A DNA stretch of 63,647 nucleotides, the filler included, from Candidatus Woesearchaeota archaeon (GTDB lineage: Archaea; Nanobdellota; Nanobdellia; Woesearchaeales; CG1-02-33-12), in assembly GCA_018399355.1 (NCBI GenBank). It is 16 parts of 16 records of this genome, joined end to end, with 100 filler letters (N's around TTAATTAATTAA, not from the genome) between each part and the next. Parts side by side here need not be neighbours in the genome. Positions count along the whole stretch, not along the records: positions 44,055 to 46,453 come from JAGYOA010000073.1; positions 46,554 to 48,915 come from JAGYOA010000074.1; 14 more parts are not named here. One strand, given 5' to 3'. This document shows, in pieces, positions 25,294 to 49,016 of the stretch (the stretch's first letter is position 1; the number at the start of each line of letters is the position of its first letter). Position numbers and translations under genes: made by a program. The notes under the pieces were generated by a model. That model was given only the letters and a program-made list of their open reading frames with translations, did no database searches and was not told the origin of the DNA.

Positions 25294-25342
25294 ATTTCTT
25301 TGATTTAGGTATATTTAATGATTTCGGTTAAGAAAAATAAGG

Positions 25343-25457
25343 AGGACAGCTTTCTGAGTTTCCCATTCAAAAGAACAGTACACCCCAAAACGTAGGCCTG
25401 CTTGACTTCCGAGTTCGAGATGGGATCGGGTAGTTCCAGACCACTATGGCCGTCCAA
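25343..25457 (-). rRNA. rrf: 5S rRNA, stand-alone
   Basis: GGACGGCCATAG...CCCGATCCCATCTCGAACTCGGAAGTCAAG...TGGGAAAC...GCTGTCC; helix I pairs; own TATA upstream. Confidence 0.93.
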
Positions 25458-43750: not shown

Positions 43751-44056
43751 CCTTTTAAATTAGAATAGTGATTAAAGCAATCACTACCCTTATAAAAACC
43801 TATCGGTATAGGGAAATATTAGATACAATAAAATCACATAATCAAATTGCAATACTGTTCTTTTAGAAAAAGAACCAAAAATCTGGACTCCCCCTCATCC
43901 TTCGGACATATAGTCTCATACAGAGAAGTTTATTATCATGAAAATTTAACTCTTNNNNNNNNNNNNNNNNNNNNNNNNNNNNNNNNNNNNNNNNNNNNTT
44001 AATTAATTAANNNNNNNNNNNNNNNNNNNNNNNNNNNNNNNNNNNNNNNNNNNNAA

Positions 44057-44500
44057 GAATACAACAGGCTAAAAGAGAAATACTCTTTGCCTGATATAAA
44101 TGATATCAGCAGCTTTTTTGGTATTTACAGGATTGAAGAAGAAGATTTTCTTTTGACGCAGATAAGGAAAAAGATTGTTGAAAAACTTATGAGGATATCA
44201 GAAATTCTTGAAAATTTTCTTCATCCTGATACAACAATGTCAGATATATACGAATGCAGGGCATTTGATGAGTTTGAAAGGGACGAAATGTTTGAACTAT
44301 ACAAAAAGTTAAAGGTGATTGAAAAACAGTCAACCTTAATTTCTCTTGATTCAGATGAGCAGAGAGAAGCAGAATTTATAAGGCAAACATTAAATTCTTG
44401 GAATGAAATAAAAGAAAAGATGATTCACTTTATAACAAAGCTTGAAAATTTCTGGAAAAGTGAATCACCTGAAAAAACAAAGGAGGGTTACTTTGGTTAA
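44057..44500 (+). CDS. Conserved-looking hypothetical protein, 5' truncated
   Basis: Open frame ending GYFG just before adk. Confidence 0.65.
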   Translation, partial: EYNRLKEKYSLPDINDISSFFGIYRIEEEDFLLTQIRKKIVEKLMRISEILENFLHPDTTMSDIYECRAFDEFERDEMFELYKKLKVIEKQSTLISLDSDEQREAEFIRQTLNSWNEIKEKMIHFITKLENFWKSESPEKTKEGYFG

Positions 44501-44501
44501 A

Positions 44502-45140
44502 ATGAATATAGTATTATTAGGCTCGCCAGGAGTCGGAAAAGGAACATATGCAGAAAAGATATCTAAAATTTACAGTATTCCGCAGATTTCAACAGGAGAT
44601 ATTTTCAGAGAGGCAATAAAGAATGAGACAAAAGTTGGGCTGGAGGCAAAAAGCTACATGGATAAGGGCGAGTTAGTTCCTGATGAGGTCACAATAAAAA
44701 TAGTCAAGGAAAGATTGGAAAAAGACGACTGCAAGAACGGCTTTATGCTTGACGGGTTTCCAAGGACAATAGCCCAGGCAGACGCACTTTCTGAAATATC
44801 CAAAATAGACAAAGTTCTTAGTTTTGTTGCAGATGACGAAATAATAATTGACAGATTATCCGGAAGAAGAGTTTGCAGCGAGTGCGGAAGAATATTTCAT
44901 GTTAAAAACATTCCTCCTAAAATAGAGGGAATCTGCGATATCTGTGAAGGAAAGCTTATCCAGAGAGAGGATGACAAGCCCGAATCAATAAAAAAGCGCC
45001 TTGATGTCTATAAAAAACAGACAGCTCCTTTAATAGATTATTACAAGGAGAAAAATATATTGGCAGAAATTGATGCAAGTAAGCCGATTGAAAAGGTTGA
45101 TGAGATAATTTCTGATGTAAGGAAGGCACTCGAGGAATAA
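44502..45140 (+). CDS. adk: Adenylate kinase (Zn-lid type)
   Basis: GSPGVGKGT, LDGFPRT, CxxC..CxxC lid; start re-called at MNIVLLG. Confidence 0.95.
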   Translation: MNIVLLGSPGVGKGTYAEKISKIYSIPQISTGDIFREAIKNETKVGLEAKSYMDKGELVPDEVTIKIVKERLEKDDCKNGFMLDGFPRTIAQADALSEISKIDKVLSFVADDEIIIDRLSGRRVCSECGRIFHVKNIPPKIEGICDICEGKLIQREDDKPESIKKRLDVYKKQTAPLIDYYKEKNILAEIDASKPIEKVDEIISDVRKALEE

Positions 45141-45145
45141 AATTA

Positions 45146-46168
45146 TTAAAATATTTTCTTTATTACTATCGTCGCATAAGAGCCTTTTGGAAGATTAAAG
45201 GATATTATGCATTTCTTTTTGTTTATGTTTATTTCATCATCTTTAATTTCTGTTTTGATGTTTTCTGCTGTGATAAACATATCTCTATAATCTCCCTCAA
45301 AGCTTAGTTCTGGCATGGCCCTTATTATAAAATCCCTAAGGTTTATTTTGTGTTTTTCCATTAATCTCAATGATATTTCTTCTATTTTTTTATCTTTAAA
45401 TTCTGTTCCAAAGCCAATTAAGGGAATTTTTTGGTTTTGCATTTCATTATTTGGAAAAATAAAAATGCCATTAGAATAATTAACTGTTTTGTAATCATCT
45501 GTATTTGTTTTGATTATTTCAGCAACAGTCTCATTAAAAATTAAGCTCTGGAATGCATGAACATACATCATGCTTATCTTTTTTGGTATTCTTTTTATAG
45601 CTCCAACAAAATCATTCGGCTTTTTTAATGTATGTTCTTTTACATCCTTTTCAAAGCCACTTTGTTTTAGGTTATCACCCAGAATCAAATCAACTGCTTT
45701 TTTAAAATCTTTTTTTATTATTGCTTTTCCTATTTCAGCATTATTTTCACTAAAACGCTGCTCATCAAAATAGTTTGGGATTTGTAATTTTTCATTAACT
45801 TTTAAGTTAAGTTCATCAAGATTTCTTACTGTGATTATAAACTTATTTTGTTTTAAATCACCAAGGTTGATCCTTTCTTTTCCATTTCCGATGTACTTAA
45901 GCTCAATGTCCTTTAGTTTGATATCTTGTTTTTTTATTGGGCCTTTTATTGAAATAAACTGCTCTGTTAATGCATTCTTGTCTTTTGCGCCCGCATAACC
46001 TATATCTTTTCTTGATTTTTTAAGGTATTCAGCTATAGTTGAAACAGCTTTTTCAGTGGTGTAGTTTGTTTTTTTAAGCGTGAAATAGCTGTACTGCCCT
46101 TCTTCTGTCTTTAACTCGTTGATCTCTTTTACTATGAAATCTTCAGGAATCTGCTTTATTTTGTACAT
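45146..46168 (-). CDS. truD: tRNA pseudouridine(13) synthase
   Basis: PEDFIVKE, AGAKDKNALTEQ, PNYFDEQRF, LPKGSYAT. Confidence 0.93.
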   Translation of the reverse strand: MYKIKQIPEDFIVKEINELKTEEGQYSYFTLKKTNYTTEKAVSTIAEYLKKSRKDIGYAGAKDKNALTEQFISIKGPIKKQDIKLKDIELKYIGNGKERINLGDLKQNKFIITVRNLDELNLKVNEKLQIPNYFDEQRFSENNAEIGKAIIKKDFKKAVDLILGDNLKQSGFEKDVKEHTLKKPNDFVGAIKRIPKKISMMYVHAFQSLIFNETVAEIIKTNTDDYKTVNYSNGIFIFPNNEMQNQKIPLIGFGTEFKDKKIEEISLRLMEKHKINLRDFIIRAMPELSFEGDYRDMFITAENIKTEIKDDEININKKKCIISFNLPKGSYATIVIKKIF

Positions 46169-46222
46169 ATTTGTAATATAAACGCAAAACTTAATAAAGC
46201 TTCATATTTTTCCTGGGATAAT

Positions 46223-46283
46223 GAGCCTGTAGCCTAGTCTGGATAGGGTGACAGCCTCCTAAGCTGTAGATCCCGGGTTCGAA
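46223..46283 (+). tRNA. tRNA-Arg(CCT), positions 1-59 only; interrupted in the T-loop
   Basis: GAGCCTG acceptor 5' strand, D arm, ACAGC-CTCCTAA-GCTGT, CCGGG-TTCGAA; expected TCCCGGCAGGCTC is absent from the contig. Confidence 0.85.
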
Positions 46284-46433
46284 CAGCTTCTTGCTAAGCT
46301 GGCACGCATGTCCAGCATAAAGCTGGACTCGCTCGCTAACGCTCGCAAACAGCTGCTTGCTCAGCTGGCACGCAGAAGCGACATTCAATTGCTTCACAAT
46401 TGAAGTCCCTTGTGCTCGCTGAAGCTCGCAAAA
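46282..46433. repeat. Two tandem structured repeat modules inserted in the tRNA T-loop
   Basis: 27-nt repeat (46282, 46348) differing only by a compensatory pair; variable hairpin; GCTCGCTnnnGCTCGCAAA twice. Confidence 0.85.
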
Positions 46434-46665
46434 TGTGAGGGTTAGATTAAAGCNNNNNNNNNNNNNNNNNNNNNNNNNNNNNNNNNNNNNNNNNNNNTTA
46501 ATTAATTAANNNNNNNNNNNNNNNNNNNNNNNNNNNNNNNNNNNNNNNNNNNNTCGATTTGGTCATCGAGGCGCCCCATCCGAGCCCGTAACCCCGGCGT
46601 CCAGGCCGATCTCGGCGAGGACGCTCGGGGCGACCGGGCCGCCTTGCCAAACCATGAATATAAAT

Positions 46666-47061
46666 TTAGTATGCCTTGGCTATTACATACTCATTCTCAT
46701 CAGCTGTTGTGTCAATCTCCTTGCCCTTGAGGTATGATATTGTCTGACAGCCATAAAACCTCAAAAAGTGGGCTAAAGCGCTTGTGTGAGGTATATTACC
46801 ATCCTTATCTGTTGAAACCCATAATCCAGATTCAACAATTTTCTTGTTCTTCTCAAACTTAACCTTGCTTATCTCCATCTCTGGAACTTCTGGATGCTTT
46901 ACTTTAAGGACAAGTTTGTTACCTATTTCCTTGCCGTCGCTATTATGAACTCTCCTAACTTCAAAGGATGTTATTTTAACCTTCTCTGGCTTTACTGGCG
47001 GCTGTTCGTTGCCTACTGGTATATTCTCATATTCTATGCTTTCGTTTGTTTCATTTTCCAT
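46666..47061 (-). CDS. Hypothetical protein downstream of rep gene (possible OB-fold SSB)
   Basis: 131-aa beta-rich ORF with GGAGG SD; function inferred from context only. Confidence 0.55.
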   Translation of the reverse strand: MENETNESIEYENIPVGNEQPPVKPEKVKITSFEVRRVHNSDGKEIGNKLVLKVKHPEVPEMEISKVKFEKNKKIVESGLWVSTDKDGNIPHTSALAHFLRFYGCQTISYLKGKEIDTTADENEYVIAKAY

Positions 47062-47088
47062 TTTCTATTTTCCTCCATGTTCTTTTGA

Positions 47089-48915
47089 TTATAATTCCAC
47101 ACCTGCACAAATATCGCAGTATATCCTGCCTTGTCTATCTTCCAAAGTCCAACCATTTGAATTTGTTGAGCCACAAACACTGCAAGGAAGATGGGTTGGG
47201 TCAACCTTTCTAAAGTGCTTTCCATCCGCTCCTTTGATTGAAAAATTTGCTTCAGAATCATCAATTTCTTCAATTTTAACCTTTGTTTCCTGTGGAGATT
47301 GGTTTAGGTTTGCGGTTACGTTAGTTACGTTTGTTACATCAGTTACGTTGTCAGTCAGCCTATTTTGTGCATCACTTTCTTTTTGATTTTCCATACTTGA
47401 CAACATAACTGTCGTAACTTTCGTAACTGTCGTAACCTTTTCAGCATCTGGCACATACTTTTTCACTAATTTTTGAAACTCATTAGTGACTAAAATGATG
47501 TTTTTTGTCTTGCCTTCAACCTTGCTCCTTTTTGTTTCAATTCCCATTCCCTTTAGGTGTTTTCCAATGGTTCTTGAGGTTGTGTTCATCCCATTTCCAT
47601 CCATCTTGTCAGCTATCATCTGCGGAGTTATTGTTTCAATACCATCTTCAACCATCAAATTAACAATTGCATTGATTATTTCACCATCAAAGCTTGAGGC
47701 CCTGTTTTCAATAAGCTCAAGCTGGTATTTTTTAAGAAATTCCTTGAAATCATCAAAAGCCTCAGGAATATTGGCAAAAAGAGATGCAAAGCTTATTGTG
47801 GCCTGTTTCAACCTTGGCTCAATATTTCCAAGGTCTAAGCTCATAACATTGTCTGGATAAATATTAAAATAATAGTCAAACCTGAACTTCAATAGCTTGT
47901 TTCTCAACTCTTCCTGCTTCTTGAAAAATTTTGAAGGGAGTATTACTGGAATATCTCTCTCAGTTGTTCTTGTGATATGAGTGAGACACCTGCTTTCTAA
48001 GGCTTGGTCCTTGAAATATTTCCTAGTGGTTATTATCTTAGGACAGAATGGAGAATAAAACTCAACAAGAGTTGGGTCAAGCTTGTTGCACTGGTATATG
48101 CTTCTGTGCTTCTCAAATCCAAGATTATAAAATTTCACAATCTCATTCTTCTCATCATCTCCCCTAAAATCGCCTTCATCAGTTAATACAGTGCCTCTCC
48201 ACTTGTTAACCATTCTTTTTAATGCCGCAACAGTACCTGCTCCGCTTCCAACTATTGGCTTGTAGCATATTCTTCCAACTGCATCCAAAAATCTGCTCTT
48301 TCCTGTTCCAAAGTCTCCAAGGGCCCTCAAATAGTTAATAGTGTTCAGCCTGTCATAAACCCAAGTAAGCAGCACATACCATGCAGAAATAGTGAGATAC
48401 TTTTCCTCGCAATCATAATATTCCCTTATAAACTCCCTTATCTCATCTATCAACGAGTTTATATCACCATAATCCTTAATATCACTTGGCAGAAGGACAA
48501 CCTCCCTTACAAGCTCTTCTGCATTTATTGGCCTGTGCTTTATTCCATCAATAATAATTTCCTTTTCCTTTGTTATTGAATTGTCAACAGGATTATGAAC
48601 ATAATAAAAAGAAGTTCCCTTTTCCGTGTCATAGCATTGTTCTGCCATTTTTCCATCAAAAAGTATTAGGCTTGTATATTCAACATCCTCTTCTTCTTTG
48701 TTTTTCTTTGGCTTGTGTGTTTTTTTAGCACTATTCTCAAGGGTATTGAGCTCTTTTTCAGAGTATTTTTCCTTTATGTAGTCCCTGAGGCCCTCAATAG
48801 TCACATCATCCCTTGGGTTGTGCTCTCCAATTTTATCAAAAAAACTCTGTTTCTGCTCTTGTGTAAGGGTATCAAACCCAACCTTCTTTTTCAAGGCCGT
48901 AAGCAAGGCATTGTA
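47089..48915 (-). CDS. Plasmid/virus replication protein: P-loop NTPase, wHTH and C-terminal Zn finger; 5' truncated
   Basis: GDFGTGKS Walker A, LTDEGD Walker B, ALESRC Arg finger, RTIGKHLKGMG, CSVC..CDIC. Confidence 0.75.
   Translation of the reverse strand, partial: YNALLTALKKKVGFDTLTQEQKQSFFDKIGEHNPRDDVTIEGLRDYIKEKYSEKELNTLENSAKKTHKPKKNKEEEDVEYTSLILFDGKMAEQCYDTEKGTSFYYVHNPVDNSITKEKEIIIDGIKHRPINAEELVREVVLLPSDIKDYGDINSLIDEIREFIREYYDCEEKYLTISAWYVLLTWVYDRLNTINYLRALGDFGTGKSRFLDAVGRICYKPIVGSGAGTVAALKRMVNKWRGTVLTDEGDFRGDDEKNEIVKFYNLGFEKHRSIYQCNKLDPTLVEFYSPFCPKIITTRKYFKDQALESRCLTHITRTTERDIPVILPSKFFKKQEELRNKLLKFRFDYYFNIYPDNVMSLDLGNIEPRLKQATISFASLFANIPEAFDDFKEFLKKYQLELIENRASSFDGEIINAIVNLMVEDGIETITPQMIADKMDGNGMNTTSRTIGKHLKGMGIETKRSKVEGKTKNIILVTNEFQKLVKKYVPDAEKVTTVTKVTTVMLSSMENQKESDAQNRLTDNVTDVTNVTNVTANLNQSPQETKVKIEEIDDSEANFSIKGADGKHFRKVDPTHLPCSVCGSTNSNGWTLEDRQGRIYCDICAGVEL
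47315..47436. repeat. Inverted iteron-like arrays (candidate replication origin)
   Basis: GTTAC at 47315/47324/47333/47342; ATAAC/GTAAC at 47405/47414/47423/47432. Confidence 0.7.
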
Positions 48916-49016
48916 NNNNNNNNNNNNNNNNNNNNNNNNNNNNNNNNNNNNNNNNNNNNTTAATTAATTAANNNNNNNNNNNNNNNNNNNNNNNNNNNNN
49001 NNNNNNNNNNNNNNNT

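What the first reader, a model, noticed from the sequence alone, without database searches (positions are those of the whole stretch)
46223..46453. tRNA-Arg(CCT) broken in the T-loop by a tandem array of covarying hairpin modules
Seen: a normal tRNA runs through position 59 (...CCGGGTTCGAA) behind a TATA-like motif. In place of TCCCGGCAGGCTC come two modules. Each has (a) a hairpin, CAGCTT-CTTGCT-AAGCTG in copy 1 and CAGCTG-CTTGCT-CAGCTG in copy 2, whose only differences are a compensatory T-A to G-C pair; (b) GCACGCA; (c) a variable hairpin (GTCCAGC-ATAAA-GCTGGAC versus TTCAATTG-CTTCA-CAATTGAA); and (d) GCTCGCTnnnGCTCGCAAA. Known: archaeal tRNAs tolerate non-canonical T-loop introns, and Nanoarchaeum has split tRNAs, but such introns are not normally modular repeats. 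Inference: a small non-autonomous structured element that targets tRNA T-loops, accumulates in tandem and is removed by splicing. Alternatives are a split-tRNA half with a structured trailer, or a dead tRNA. The contig ends before any 3' exon appears.
Basis: partly seen in the sequence, partly recalled or inferred. Interest (0 to 1): 0.82.

Follow-up and report, generated by a model that had tools for sequence, protein, structure and literature searches.

The report
Repeat-built intron in archaeal tRNA
This is an arginine tRNA gene of a tiny Woesearchaeota-type archaeon whose T-loop carries a spliceable intron, cut short only by the end of the assembled contig, and the intron is made of two copies of a small folded repeat that also lands elsewhere in these genomes, which may show where archaeal tRNA introns come from.

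Summary
The gene is neither split nor dead: the contig ends at 46453, about 23 nt before the expected 3' splice site. In 11 of 12 relatives the orthologous tRNA-Arg(CCT) is complete, with an intron at 59/60 and the predicted 3' exon. Across 112 such introns the central splice helix pairs 4/4 in 108 and covaries with tRNA base 57. EndA and RtcB genes are present.

The module has 12 copies in this genome (9 in T-loop introns, 3 behind tRNA ends) and 173 in the 13-genome family. Its core is found across DPANN archaea: in D-loop and anticodon introns, at gene starts, in both orientations, and flanked by 12-45-nt duplications (28 of 84 copies, 0 of 262 controls).

Its first hairpin folds on the transcribed strand and shows three-way covariation. 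Its last two fold better on the opposite strand, as DNA mini-hairpins. No mobilising enzyme was found.

Verdict: relaxed BHB intron built from an apparently undescribed mobile repeat; a new variant of archaeal intron transposition. This scan noted the same family before on other DNA.

The parts
46191..46198 (+). TATA-like box of the tRNA promoter, in the short gap shared with the divergent truD gene
   Evidence: sequence; same motif in front of 10 orthologues; truD by Pfam
46223..46283 (+). 5' exon of tRNA-Arg(CCT), positions 1-59; anticodon at 46258-46260; T54-G57 (46278-46281) is the 5' strand of the central splice helix
   Evidence: orthologues
46284..46453 (+). 59/60 intron, cut off by the contig end; about 193 nt expected
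   Evidence: contig end; orthologue G004:C36 and the Ser intron on C3 share this tail and run 23 nt further to the splice site
46284..46349 (+). module copy 1
   Evidence: model R1, 82.9 bits
46284..46308 (+). core of copy 1: hairpin a plus GCACGCA; the first three tail bases track the AT/GC class of stem pairs 3-5
46310..46328 (.). hairpin c of copy 1 (variable, covarying)
46331..46346 (-). motif d of copy 1; on the minus strand an imperfect hairpin with tandem G.A pairs and a GTTA loop (GCGNNAGC mini-hairpin type)
   Evidence: PMC13037366 passages
46350..46432 (+). module copy 2
   Evidence: model R1, 83.0 bits
46350..46374 (+). core of copy 2 (hairpin a with the compensatory G-C pair, plus GCACGCA)
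46376..46411 (.). hairpin c of copy 2, long form with inner and outer stem
46414..46429 (-). motif d of copy 2 (minus-strand loop TTCA, a minority variant without the leading G)
46433..46453 (+). start of the intron tail; the contig ends here

Best explanation
The locus is an ordinary, most likely working tRNA-Arg(CCU) gene with a protein-spliced intron at 59/60 (about 95% sure; the rival routes of spread share this part). The T-stem, a 4-bp helix between T54-R57 and a YGAA near the intron end, and a 3-nt bulge form an hBH/BHL junction that EndA cuts and RtcB ligates (junction shown in relatives, splicing inferred). The intron is filled by copies of a 60-85-nt non-autonomous repeat. The repeat most likely spreads through a single-stranded DNA form of its antisense strand, stabilised by GNA/GNNA mini-hairpins. 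It is inserted by an enzyme encoded elsewhere at staggered breaks, which leave 12-45-nt duplications of gene starts and tRNA ends (duplications shown; intermediate and enzyme inferred). Copies that land in a tRNA loop and acquire a splice junction are removed from the RNA, so these introns become safe sites where copies pile up, nest and are exchanged between tRNA genes.
For: Orthologues: 11 of 12 relatives have the complete gene with a 59/60 intron. Splice helix 4/4 in 108 of 112 introns. G57 pairs with C in 32 and T in 14 of 46; A57 pairs with T in 62 of 66 (kin are not independent). EndA and RtcB are present; the EndA of G002 is closest to the N. equitans and M. jannaschii structures. Turnover: intron lengths at one site run from 42 to 149 nt among Arg(CCT) orthologues; the intron is absent from Val(CAC) in 2 of 8 genomes; the nearest neighbour of an intron lies in another tRNA type for 61 of 106. 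Extra-intronic copies: 25 trailers (2 inverted) and 10 non-tRNA copies among 156 classified. Flanking repeats of 12 nt or more in 28 of 84 non-T-loop copies against 0 of 262 controls; in 26 the repeat ends within 10 nt of the core. Antisense folding of hairpins c and d: G..A loops on the opposite strand 23 against 1 (controls 35 against 36); stem mismatches A.C 33 against G.T 8 (controls 82 against 68); motif d loops begin with G in 113 of 137 and all end in A.
Against: No mobilising gene was found. No recurring neighbour among 146 adjacent proteins. No enrichment in core-positive against core-negative genomes for Y1 transposase (16 of 36 against 41 of 115), RT (6 of 36 against 27 of 115) or GIY-YIG (13 of 36 against 46 of 115). 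Hairpin a favours the transcribed strand, not the antisense one (T.G at pair 5 in 57 copies against C.A in 7). 4 of the 23 G..A loops can also be read as RNA cUUCGg on the transcribed strand. A strict second helix is found in only 24 of 110 introns, and the splice helix has probability above 0.5 in only 71 of 109. 56 of 84 non-T-loop copies have no flanking repeat, and 3 of the 28 are tandem arrays. The 3' exon of this very gene is not in the assembly. One relative has an Arg 5' exon joined to a Val 3' exon across the module (G008), so some assemblies may be chimeric.
Confidence: 0.45

Rival explanations
1. Same intron, but the repeat spreads through RNA. The excised intron, or the intron-plus-3'-exon splicing intermediate, is reverse-transcribed at a nick (target-primed, with an RT borrowed from diversity-generating retroelements or viruses). 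The antisense mini-hairpins then protect the cDNA, and hairpin a with its tail is the RNA signal, as in a retron msr/msd pair.
For: The two halves favour opposite strands: hairpin a the transcript, hairpins c and d the complement. The element's 5' end coincides with the intron's 5' end. 5 of 23 same-strand trailer copies end in a splice-site tail joined to a second copy of the 3' exon, the geometry of a staggered-nick insertion. Variable-length duplications fit target-primed insertion (recalled). One nested array sits just upstream of an Avd/RT cassette (G011:C141).
Against: No RT in this genome, and RT in only 3 of 13 family genomes. No enrichment across the order. The core lies near 1 of 11 RT loci examined. 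The intronless Val(CAC) allele of G005 has G at 59, as a DNA deletion would leave, not the A expected from a spliced cDNA.
Confidence: 0.25
2. No dedicated mobility. These are old BHB introns shuffled between tRNA genes by gene conversion, as proposed for Thermoproteales. Tandem and trailer copies arise by slippage or unequal recombination at a fork-stalling hairpin.
For: In this family 146 of 156 copies are in or directly behind tRNA genes. Orthologous introns are on average more alike (0.31) than paralogous ones (0.27). No enzyme was found.
Against: The 28-nt core is kept almost letter for letter across distant DPANN groups, at unrelated sites including protein-gene starts and inverted positions, with a fixed 5' boundary next to the duplicated target. 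Covariation and strand asymmetry need selection that splicing alone does not explain.
Confidence: 0.22
3. The module is kept because the released intron is a functional small RNA (for example a circular RNA or a protein-binding pseudoknot); its spread is secondary.
For: Hairpin a folds on the transcribed strand, with three-way covariation of stem and tail in 45, 46 and 44 of 49 distinct cores.
Against: Introns at the same site can be 17-49 nt and lack most of the module. Copies occur inverted and outside tRNAs. The core was found in only 36 of 151 genomes of the order.
Confidence: 0.05
4. Split tRNA half with a structured trailer, a dead tRNA, or a chimeric contig.
For: The 3' exon is missing from the assembly. 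A cross-tRNA join exists in G008. No listed contig piece from four runs bridges the junction.
Against: The contig ends inside the tail. 11 orthologues are contiguous. The same two-module intron, 88% alike, is complete in tRNA-Arg(TCT) of G004. Copy 2 has no identical twin in this genome to have been mis-joined from.
Confidence: 0.03

Closest known systems
Non-canonical archaeal tRNA introns at 59/60 with hBH/BHL junctions, e.g. [quoted passage not shown]
   Same: Position 59/60, central 4-bp helix with a 3-nt bulge, relaxed second helix, EndA plus RtcB in a DPANN genome.
   Different: Here the introns reach 80-200 nt, are built of repeated modules, sit in about 18 tRNA types of one family, and their content also exists outside introns.
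Transposed tRNA-intron families of Thermoproteales (Fujishima et al. 2010; seen only through passages of PMC4090602 and bioRxiv 10.64898/2026.10.13.758758)
   Same: Near-identical introns in different tRNA types and at different positions; mechanism unknown.
   Different: A free, extra-intronic form of the intron core is visible here, with target duplications, both orientations and conserved structure on both strands.
Non-autonomous IS200/IS605 derivatives (PATEs) and REP/RAYT elements (recalled)
   Same: Short, enzyme-less, imperfect hairpins with a strand bias, dispersed and in tandem.
   Different: Long variable duplications flank many copies, which these families are not recalled to make. 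The IS200 elements in these genomes have unrelated ends.
tRNA-end duplications left by integrative elements (Caldiarchaeum tRNA-Thr model, PMC3293823, passages)
   Same: A tRNA 5' or 3' fragment repeated on the far side of an insert, linked to intron gain.
   Different: The insert is 60-200 nt with no recombinase, and protein-gene starts are duplicated too.
Mini-hairpin DNA GCGNAGC/GCGNNAGC in single-stranded phage origins and N4 promoters (PMC13037366, abstract start and passages)
   Same: Motif d on the antisense strand carries these loops, including GAA and GTTA.
   Different: A sequence resemblance only; no priming or binding was tested.

Membership tests
Archaeal BHB-type tRNA intron | Removal restores a full cloverleaf from two contiguous exons | tested here: met
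   Met in 11 of 12 orthologues and 6 complete paralogues of this genome; at this locus the 3' exon lies beyond the contig end
Archaeal BHB-type tRNA intron | Outer helix, 3-nt bulge and central 4-bp helix at the 3' splice site (hBH) | tested here: met
   108 of 112 introns pair 4/4, with covariation at base 57
Archaeal BHB-type tRNA intron | Strict second helix after a 3-nt bulge (full hBHBh') | tested here: not met
   2 or more pairs in only 24 of 110; a helix of 4 or more pairs with an offset in 62 of 110 against 11.6 shuffled, so the relaxed hBH/BHL form
Archaeal BHB-type tRNA intron | EndA and RtcB encoded | tested here: met
   one EndA gene of about 195 aa per genome in 4 of 5 relatives; the own copy is cut by a contig end
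Archaeal BHB-type tRNA intron | Spliced product detected | not testable with these tools
   needs RNA data or an in vitro assay
Thermoproteales-type transposed intron family | Closely related introns in different tRNA types | tested here: met
   nearest neighbour in another type for 61 of 106; 11 cross-type pairs score above 0.85 against 20 orthologous pairs
Split tRNA (Nanoarchaeum/Caldivirga type) | Halves at separate loci with complementary leader and trailer | tested here: not met
   no separate 3' half in the assembly; orthologues contiguous
MITE | Terminal inverted repeats and a short fixed target duplication | tested here: not met
   ends pair over about 5-6 nt, and only in the intron form; duplications run from 12 to 45 nt
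IS200/IS605 non-autonomous element or REP | Cognate Y1 transposase with the same ends or flanking repeats | tested here: not met
   20 Y1 loci examined carry their own ends; only 1 has a module nearby, inside a tRNA intron; no co-occurrence
IS200/IS605 non-autonomous element or REP | Strand-specific imperfect hairpin | tested here: inconclusive
   hairpins c and d favour one strand, hairpin a the other
Integron attC site | Integron integrase in the genome; invariant AAC/GTT cores | tested here: not met
   TIGR02249 over the cut-off in 0 of 151 genomes; module ends vary (CAGC, CAAC, CAAA)
Retron ncRNA or other RT-mobilised element | Linked reverse transcriptase | tested here: not met
   core near 1 of 11 RT loci; RT in 3 of 13 family genomes
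Retron ncRNA or other RT-mobilised element | Branched RNA-DNA product | not testable with these tools
   needs extraction of single-stranded DNA
Casposon or CRISPR array | Cas1 present | tested here: not met
   Cas1 in 8 of 151 genomes, in none of the 3 family genomes in that set
Described RNA families (group I/II introns, Rfam motifs) | Rfam match | tested here: not met
   only tRNA matches at E up to 1 in 44000-49000 and at E up to 0.1 in 12 loci with the core

The most novel reading that the evidence does not exclude
The module is a new class of protein-less mobile element of DPANN archaea with a two-faced design. A triple-stranded pseudoknot core acts on the transcribed strand and nuclease-resistant DNA mini-hairpins act on the complement. 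It inserts with long variable duplications and creates tRNA introns de novo, so it would be the first identified donor of archaeal BHB introns.
Probability: 0.35. Interest if true: 0.85.

Novelty: new variant of a known kind. Interest (0 to 1): 0.62.

Why it matters
How archaeal tRNA introns arrive and move is an open question. A 2014 review calls the mechanism unknown (PMC4090602, passages), and a 2026 preprint on Asgard archaea found no general route (10.64898/2026.10.13.758758, section 2.5 read). Here the intron core exists both inside introns and as a free repeat with insertion footprints, in a family where introns are still gained, lost and swapped. That gives a defined 60-85-nt substrate for splicing, folding and insertion tests. 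In practice these introns hide tRNA genes: ARAGORN found 15 genes in this 97.5% complete genome and missed all 8 module-bearing ones. Two contigs of this assembly end inside a module intron.

Tried and rejected
Extending the contig: no contig of the own assembly matched the gene found downstream of the orthologues (blastn and tblastx empty). Four public runs held as contigs gave no listed piece that bridges 46283/46284 (46 pieces not shown); this is no evidence either way. No RNA holder listed. The core pattern had 0 matches in viral contigs. Candidate enzymes rejected for lack of linkage: Y1 transposase (own copy is a broken IS200), GIY-YIG (own hit below cut-off), RT, integron integrase, Cas1. 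The DGR link suggested by G011:C141 did not generalise (1 of 11 RT loci). My idea that the whole module folds on the antisense strand was rejected, because hairpin a favours the transcribed strand. The idea that the YGAA of the splice helix is simply a duplicated T-loop works only for G57 tRNAs; A57 tRNAs carry T, not C, there. Splicing at 58/59 was rejected on helix geometry. ARAGORN labels on in-silico spliced genes were partly wrong where a second intron was present, so types were relabelled by rule; the Pro and Lys labels remain rough. A pseudoknot between the loop of hairpin a and the tail is suggested by a few compensatory variants in the match list, but the count held almost no variation at that pair (29 of 31 unchanged), so it is a lead only. 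Literature searches listed no paper describing this repeat. The library lacks most subscription papers, Fujishima 2010 was not read, and no supplements were opened; the tRNA tables of PMC5829648 and the closed bioRxiv supplements may bear on novelty.

Full report
Observation. The window is a concatenation of contigs, and the finding is the last 231 nt of the 2399-nt contig C71. The tRNA 5' part (46223-46283) passes the Rfam tRNA cut-off. The two modules are as described, and the insert folds better than all 200 shuffles. The gene lies divergent to truD, with adenylate kinase beyond. The genome is 918 kb and 97.5% complete. Named records that share the repeat are mostly titled Woesearchaeota or Nanoarchaeota, so I call the organism Woesearchaeota-type; this placement is inferred.

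It is an intron cut by the contig end. The module has 12 copies in this genome (a 13th weak match overlaps one of them). Nine sit right after position 59 of eight tRNA genes: Arg(CCT) twice, Ser(TGA), Pro(TGG), Pro(GGG), Val(CAC), Val(GAC), Gly(CCC) and Thr(TGT). Three sit 2-3 nt behind a tRNA 3' end. The six complete genes all end their insert in TGAAAG followed by the missing 3' exon. The orthologous Arg(CCT) gene is complete, with an intron at the same place, in 11 of 12 relatives. In the twelfth, G008, the Arg 5' exon is joined to a Val 3' exon, a misassembly or a recombinant. The G004 orthologue has the same tail as the window and runs 23 nt further to the splice site, so the intron here should be about 193 nt. 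The same two-module arrangement, 88% alike, is the intron of tRNA-Arg(TCT) in G004.

Splice junction. I collected 137 tRNA genes from the fetched loci of the family, 112 with a T-loop intron and 25 without. These loci were chosen by module matches, so the ratio is not a census. T54-R57 pairs 4/4 with the four bases before the last two in 108 of 112 introns. G57 goes with C (32) or T (14); A57 goes with T in 62 of 66. Position 59 is A in 109 of 112 intron-bearing genes and 9 of 25 intronless ones. The T-stem has pair probability above 0.5 in 105 of 109 folds and the splice helix in 71 of 109. The second helix is mostly offset: strict in 24 of 110, four or more pairs with an offset in 62 of 110 against 11.6 for shuffled tails. 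This is the relaxed hBH/BHL form, which PMC5829648 (passages) describes at 59/60 in ARMAN-2 and links to loop insertions in EndA, including alpha4 enzymes of DPANN. EndA and RtcB are present. A full-length relative of 195 aa matches the N. equitans and M. jannaschii structures best; I did not test its loop type or oligomer. Splicing itself is inferred.

The module is a dispersed repeat. A covariance model from 24 copies (12 of 18 pairs with changes on both sides, 0 of 500 shuffles as high) found 173 copies in 13 of 13 family genomes and matches in 28 of 151 genomes of the order. I classified 156 of the 173 (104 introns automatically and 17 by eye): 121 in 59/60 introns of about 18 tRNA types, 25 behind tRNA 3' ends (2 inverted), 10 away from tRNAs, several just upstream of a ribosome-binding site. 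A 28-nt core pattern matched 36 of 151 genomes of the order with 0 control matches, and 29 of 301 of the phylum sample, all in the same order. The 80 titles shown were Woesearchaeota, Nanoarchaeota, Nanohaloarchaea, Asbonarchaeaceae, one Altiarchaeales, unnamed archaea and records labelled 'uncultured Methanosarcinales', a label I did not check. Outside this family the core is also an intron in D-loops and at 37/38, so T-loop targeting is a family trait. Some tallies include genomes marked unpublished (G143, G132, G123); no claim depends on them alone.

Insertion footprints. Of 117 distinct core copies, 16 lay too near a locus edge and 17 were T-loop introns by a strict rule. Of the other 84, 28 are flanked by exact direct repeats of 12-45 nt, 26 of them ending within 10 nt of the core's 5' end; 0 of 262 control positions and 0 of 17 T-loop introns show this. 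Three of the 28 are tandem arrays. The duplicated stretches are tRNA 5' ends, tRNA 3' ends on either strand and protein-gene starts. In this family, 5 of 23 same-strand trailer copies end in a splice-site tail and a second copy of the 3' exon. One has an intronless gene in front (G005). This reads as a whole intron inserted with its 3' end at 59/60 and its 5' end behind the gene, that is, a staggered insertion. Introns also turn over: absent from Val(CAC) in 2 of 8 genomes, Val(TAC) in 1 of 5, Thr(TGT) in 1 of 2 scored; nearest neighbour in another tRNA type for 61 of 106. Orthologues remain a little more alike on average (0.31 against 0.27).

Which strand folds. Motif d is an imperfect hairpin whose inner pair switches from G-C to A-T on both sides in 27 copies, with 3 one-sided changes. 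On the transcribed strand it has tandem C.T mismatches. On the other strand it has tandem G.A pairs, and a loop that ends in A in 137 of 137 and begins with G in 113 (19 copies unparsed). These are the GCGNAGC and GCGNNAGC mini-hairpins, far more stable as DNA than as RNA and known from single-stranded phage origins (PMC13037366, passages). The variable hairpin c gives an independent test: G..A loops lie on the opposite strand in 23 cases against 1 (controls 35 against 36), and stem mismatches read A.C 33 against G.T 8 (controls 82 against 68). Whole modules fold better on the opposite strand in 130 of 152 with DNA energies. Against a purely antisense element, hairpin a has T.G on the transcribed strand in 57 copies at pair 5 against C.A in 7. 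Its tail shows three-way covariation: tail bases 1-3 match the AT/GC class of stem pairs 3-5 in 45, 46 and 44 of 49 distinct cores, as base triples would require. Earlier notes of this scan gave the triple idea; the counts are mine, and copies are related by descent.

The enzyme is missing. No mobile gene recurs among 146 adjacent proteins. RT, Y1 transposase and GIY-YIG are not enriched in core-positive genomes (P 0.19-1.0). The 20 Y1 loci examined are IS200 elements with their own ends. Integron integrase (0 of 151 over the cut-off) and Cas1 (8 of 151) do not fit. One nested array precedes an Avd/RT cassette, 1 of 11 RT loci.

Mechanism, shown and inferred. Shown: the gene structure in relatives, the covarying splice helix, the enzymes for splicing, the repeat's spread, the duplications and the strand biases. 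Inferred: splicing in the cell, a single-stranded DNA intermediate, insertion at staggered breaks, and introns as safe sites. I give 0.45 to a DNA-level route with an unknown enzyme, 0.25 to an RNA-to-cDNA route, 0.22 to passive conversion and slippage, 0.05 to a functional intron RNA and 0.03 to a split, dead or chimeric gene.

Comparison and novelty. As an intron it belongs to the known relaxed BHB class, and shared introns across tRNA types are known from Thermoproteales (PMC4090602, passages). It fails membership of MITEs, IS200/REP, attC, retrons and casposons on the features tested. Seven literature searches (listings and starts of abstracts) showed no description of this repeat, and Rfam has none. 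The Asgard preprint (section 2.5 and passages) leaves the route of intron arrival open. This scan has noted the same family twice on other DNA (both later marked as partly fallen, without detail) and similar DPANN families several times. These notes are not independent support. Verdict: new variant of a known kind, interest 0.62.

Noticed in passing
L013 (G008:C74:1-185): tRNA-Arg(CCT) 5' exon joined through a module intron to a tRNA-Val 3' exon near a contig end: misassembly or recombination between module copies.
   Followed up: no
window 46260/46261; L103, L113, L123, L154, L171, L017: Six relatives carry a second, hairpin-rich intron of about 39 nt at 37/38 of tRNA-Arg(CCT) that this genome lacks; a contig of run X2 shows the same insert.
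   Followed up: partly
L005 (G000:C33:4190-4345): Intronless tRNA-Thr(GGT) followed by an insert of about 75 nt with two hairpins and a 12-nt copy of its own 3' end; not matched by the module model.
   Followed up: no
L008, L009 (G000:C46): tRNA-Lys and tRNA-Arg(TCG) carry D-loop introns unrelated to the module.
   Followed up: no
L053 (G005:C60), L172 (G011:C7): Intronless Val(CAC) alleles have G or T at position 59, unlike the A of intron-bearing alleles; the G fits loss by a DNA deletion between short homologies.
   Followed up: partly
L322 (G011:C141:1-460): Nested array of module pieces directly upstream of a four-helix-bundle gene, an Avd-like gene and an RT (DGR cassette).
   Followed up: yes
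L326 (G009:C115:2685-2749): A module lies inside a 403-aa open frame without breaking it; the protein has no Pfam match.
   Followed up: partly
L082, L191-L193, L092, L196, L197, L087, L090, L094: In five other families the core is embedded in a longer multi-copy intergenic repeat of about 200 nt with further hairpins; no Rfam match.
   Followed up: partly
L232: Core plus a 40-nt stretch of a gene start repeated head to tail, like a small array with constant spacers.
   Followed up: no
L028 (G030:C5): tRNA-Arg(TCT) followed by several copies of its own 3' end separated by inverted core-like modules.
   Followed up: partly
window 46555-46650 and 47089-48906: The next contig (C72) starts with a GC-rich stretch of about 95 nt without an Rfam match, next to 131-aa and 605-aa open frames without Pfam matches; it looks like a piece of a virus or plasmid.
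   Followed up: partly
L042 (G000:C13:5440-5880): Broken IS200-type transposase gene between its two palindromic ends.
   Followed up: yes
window 25341-25457 (-): 5S rRNA gene.
   Followed up: no
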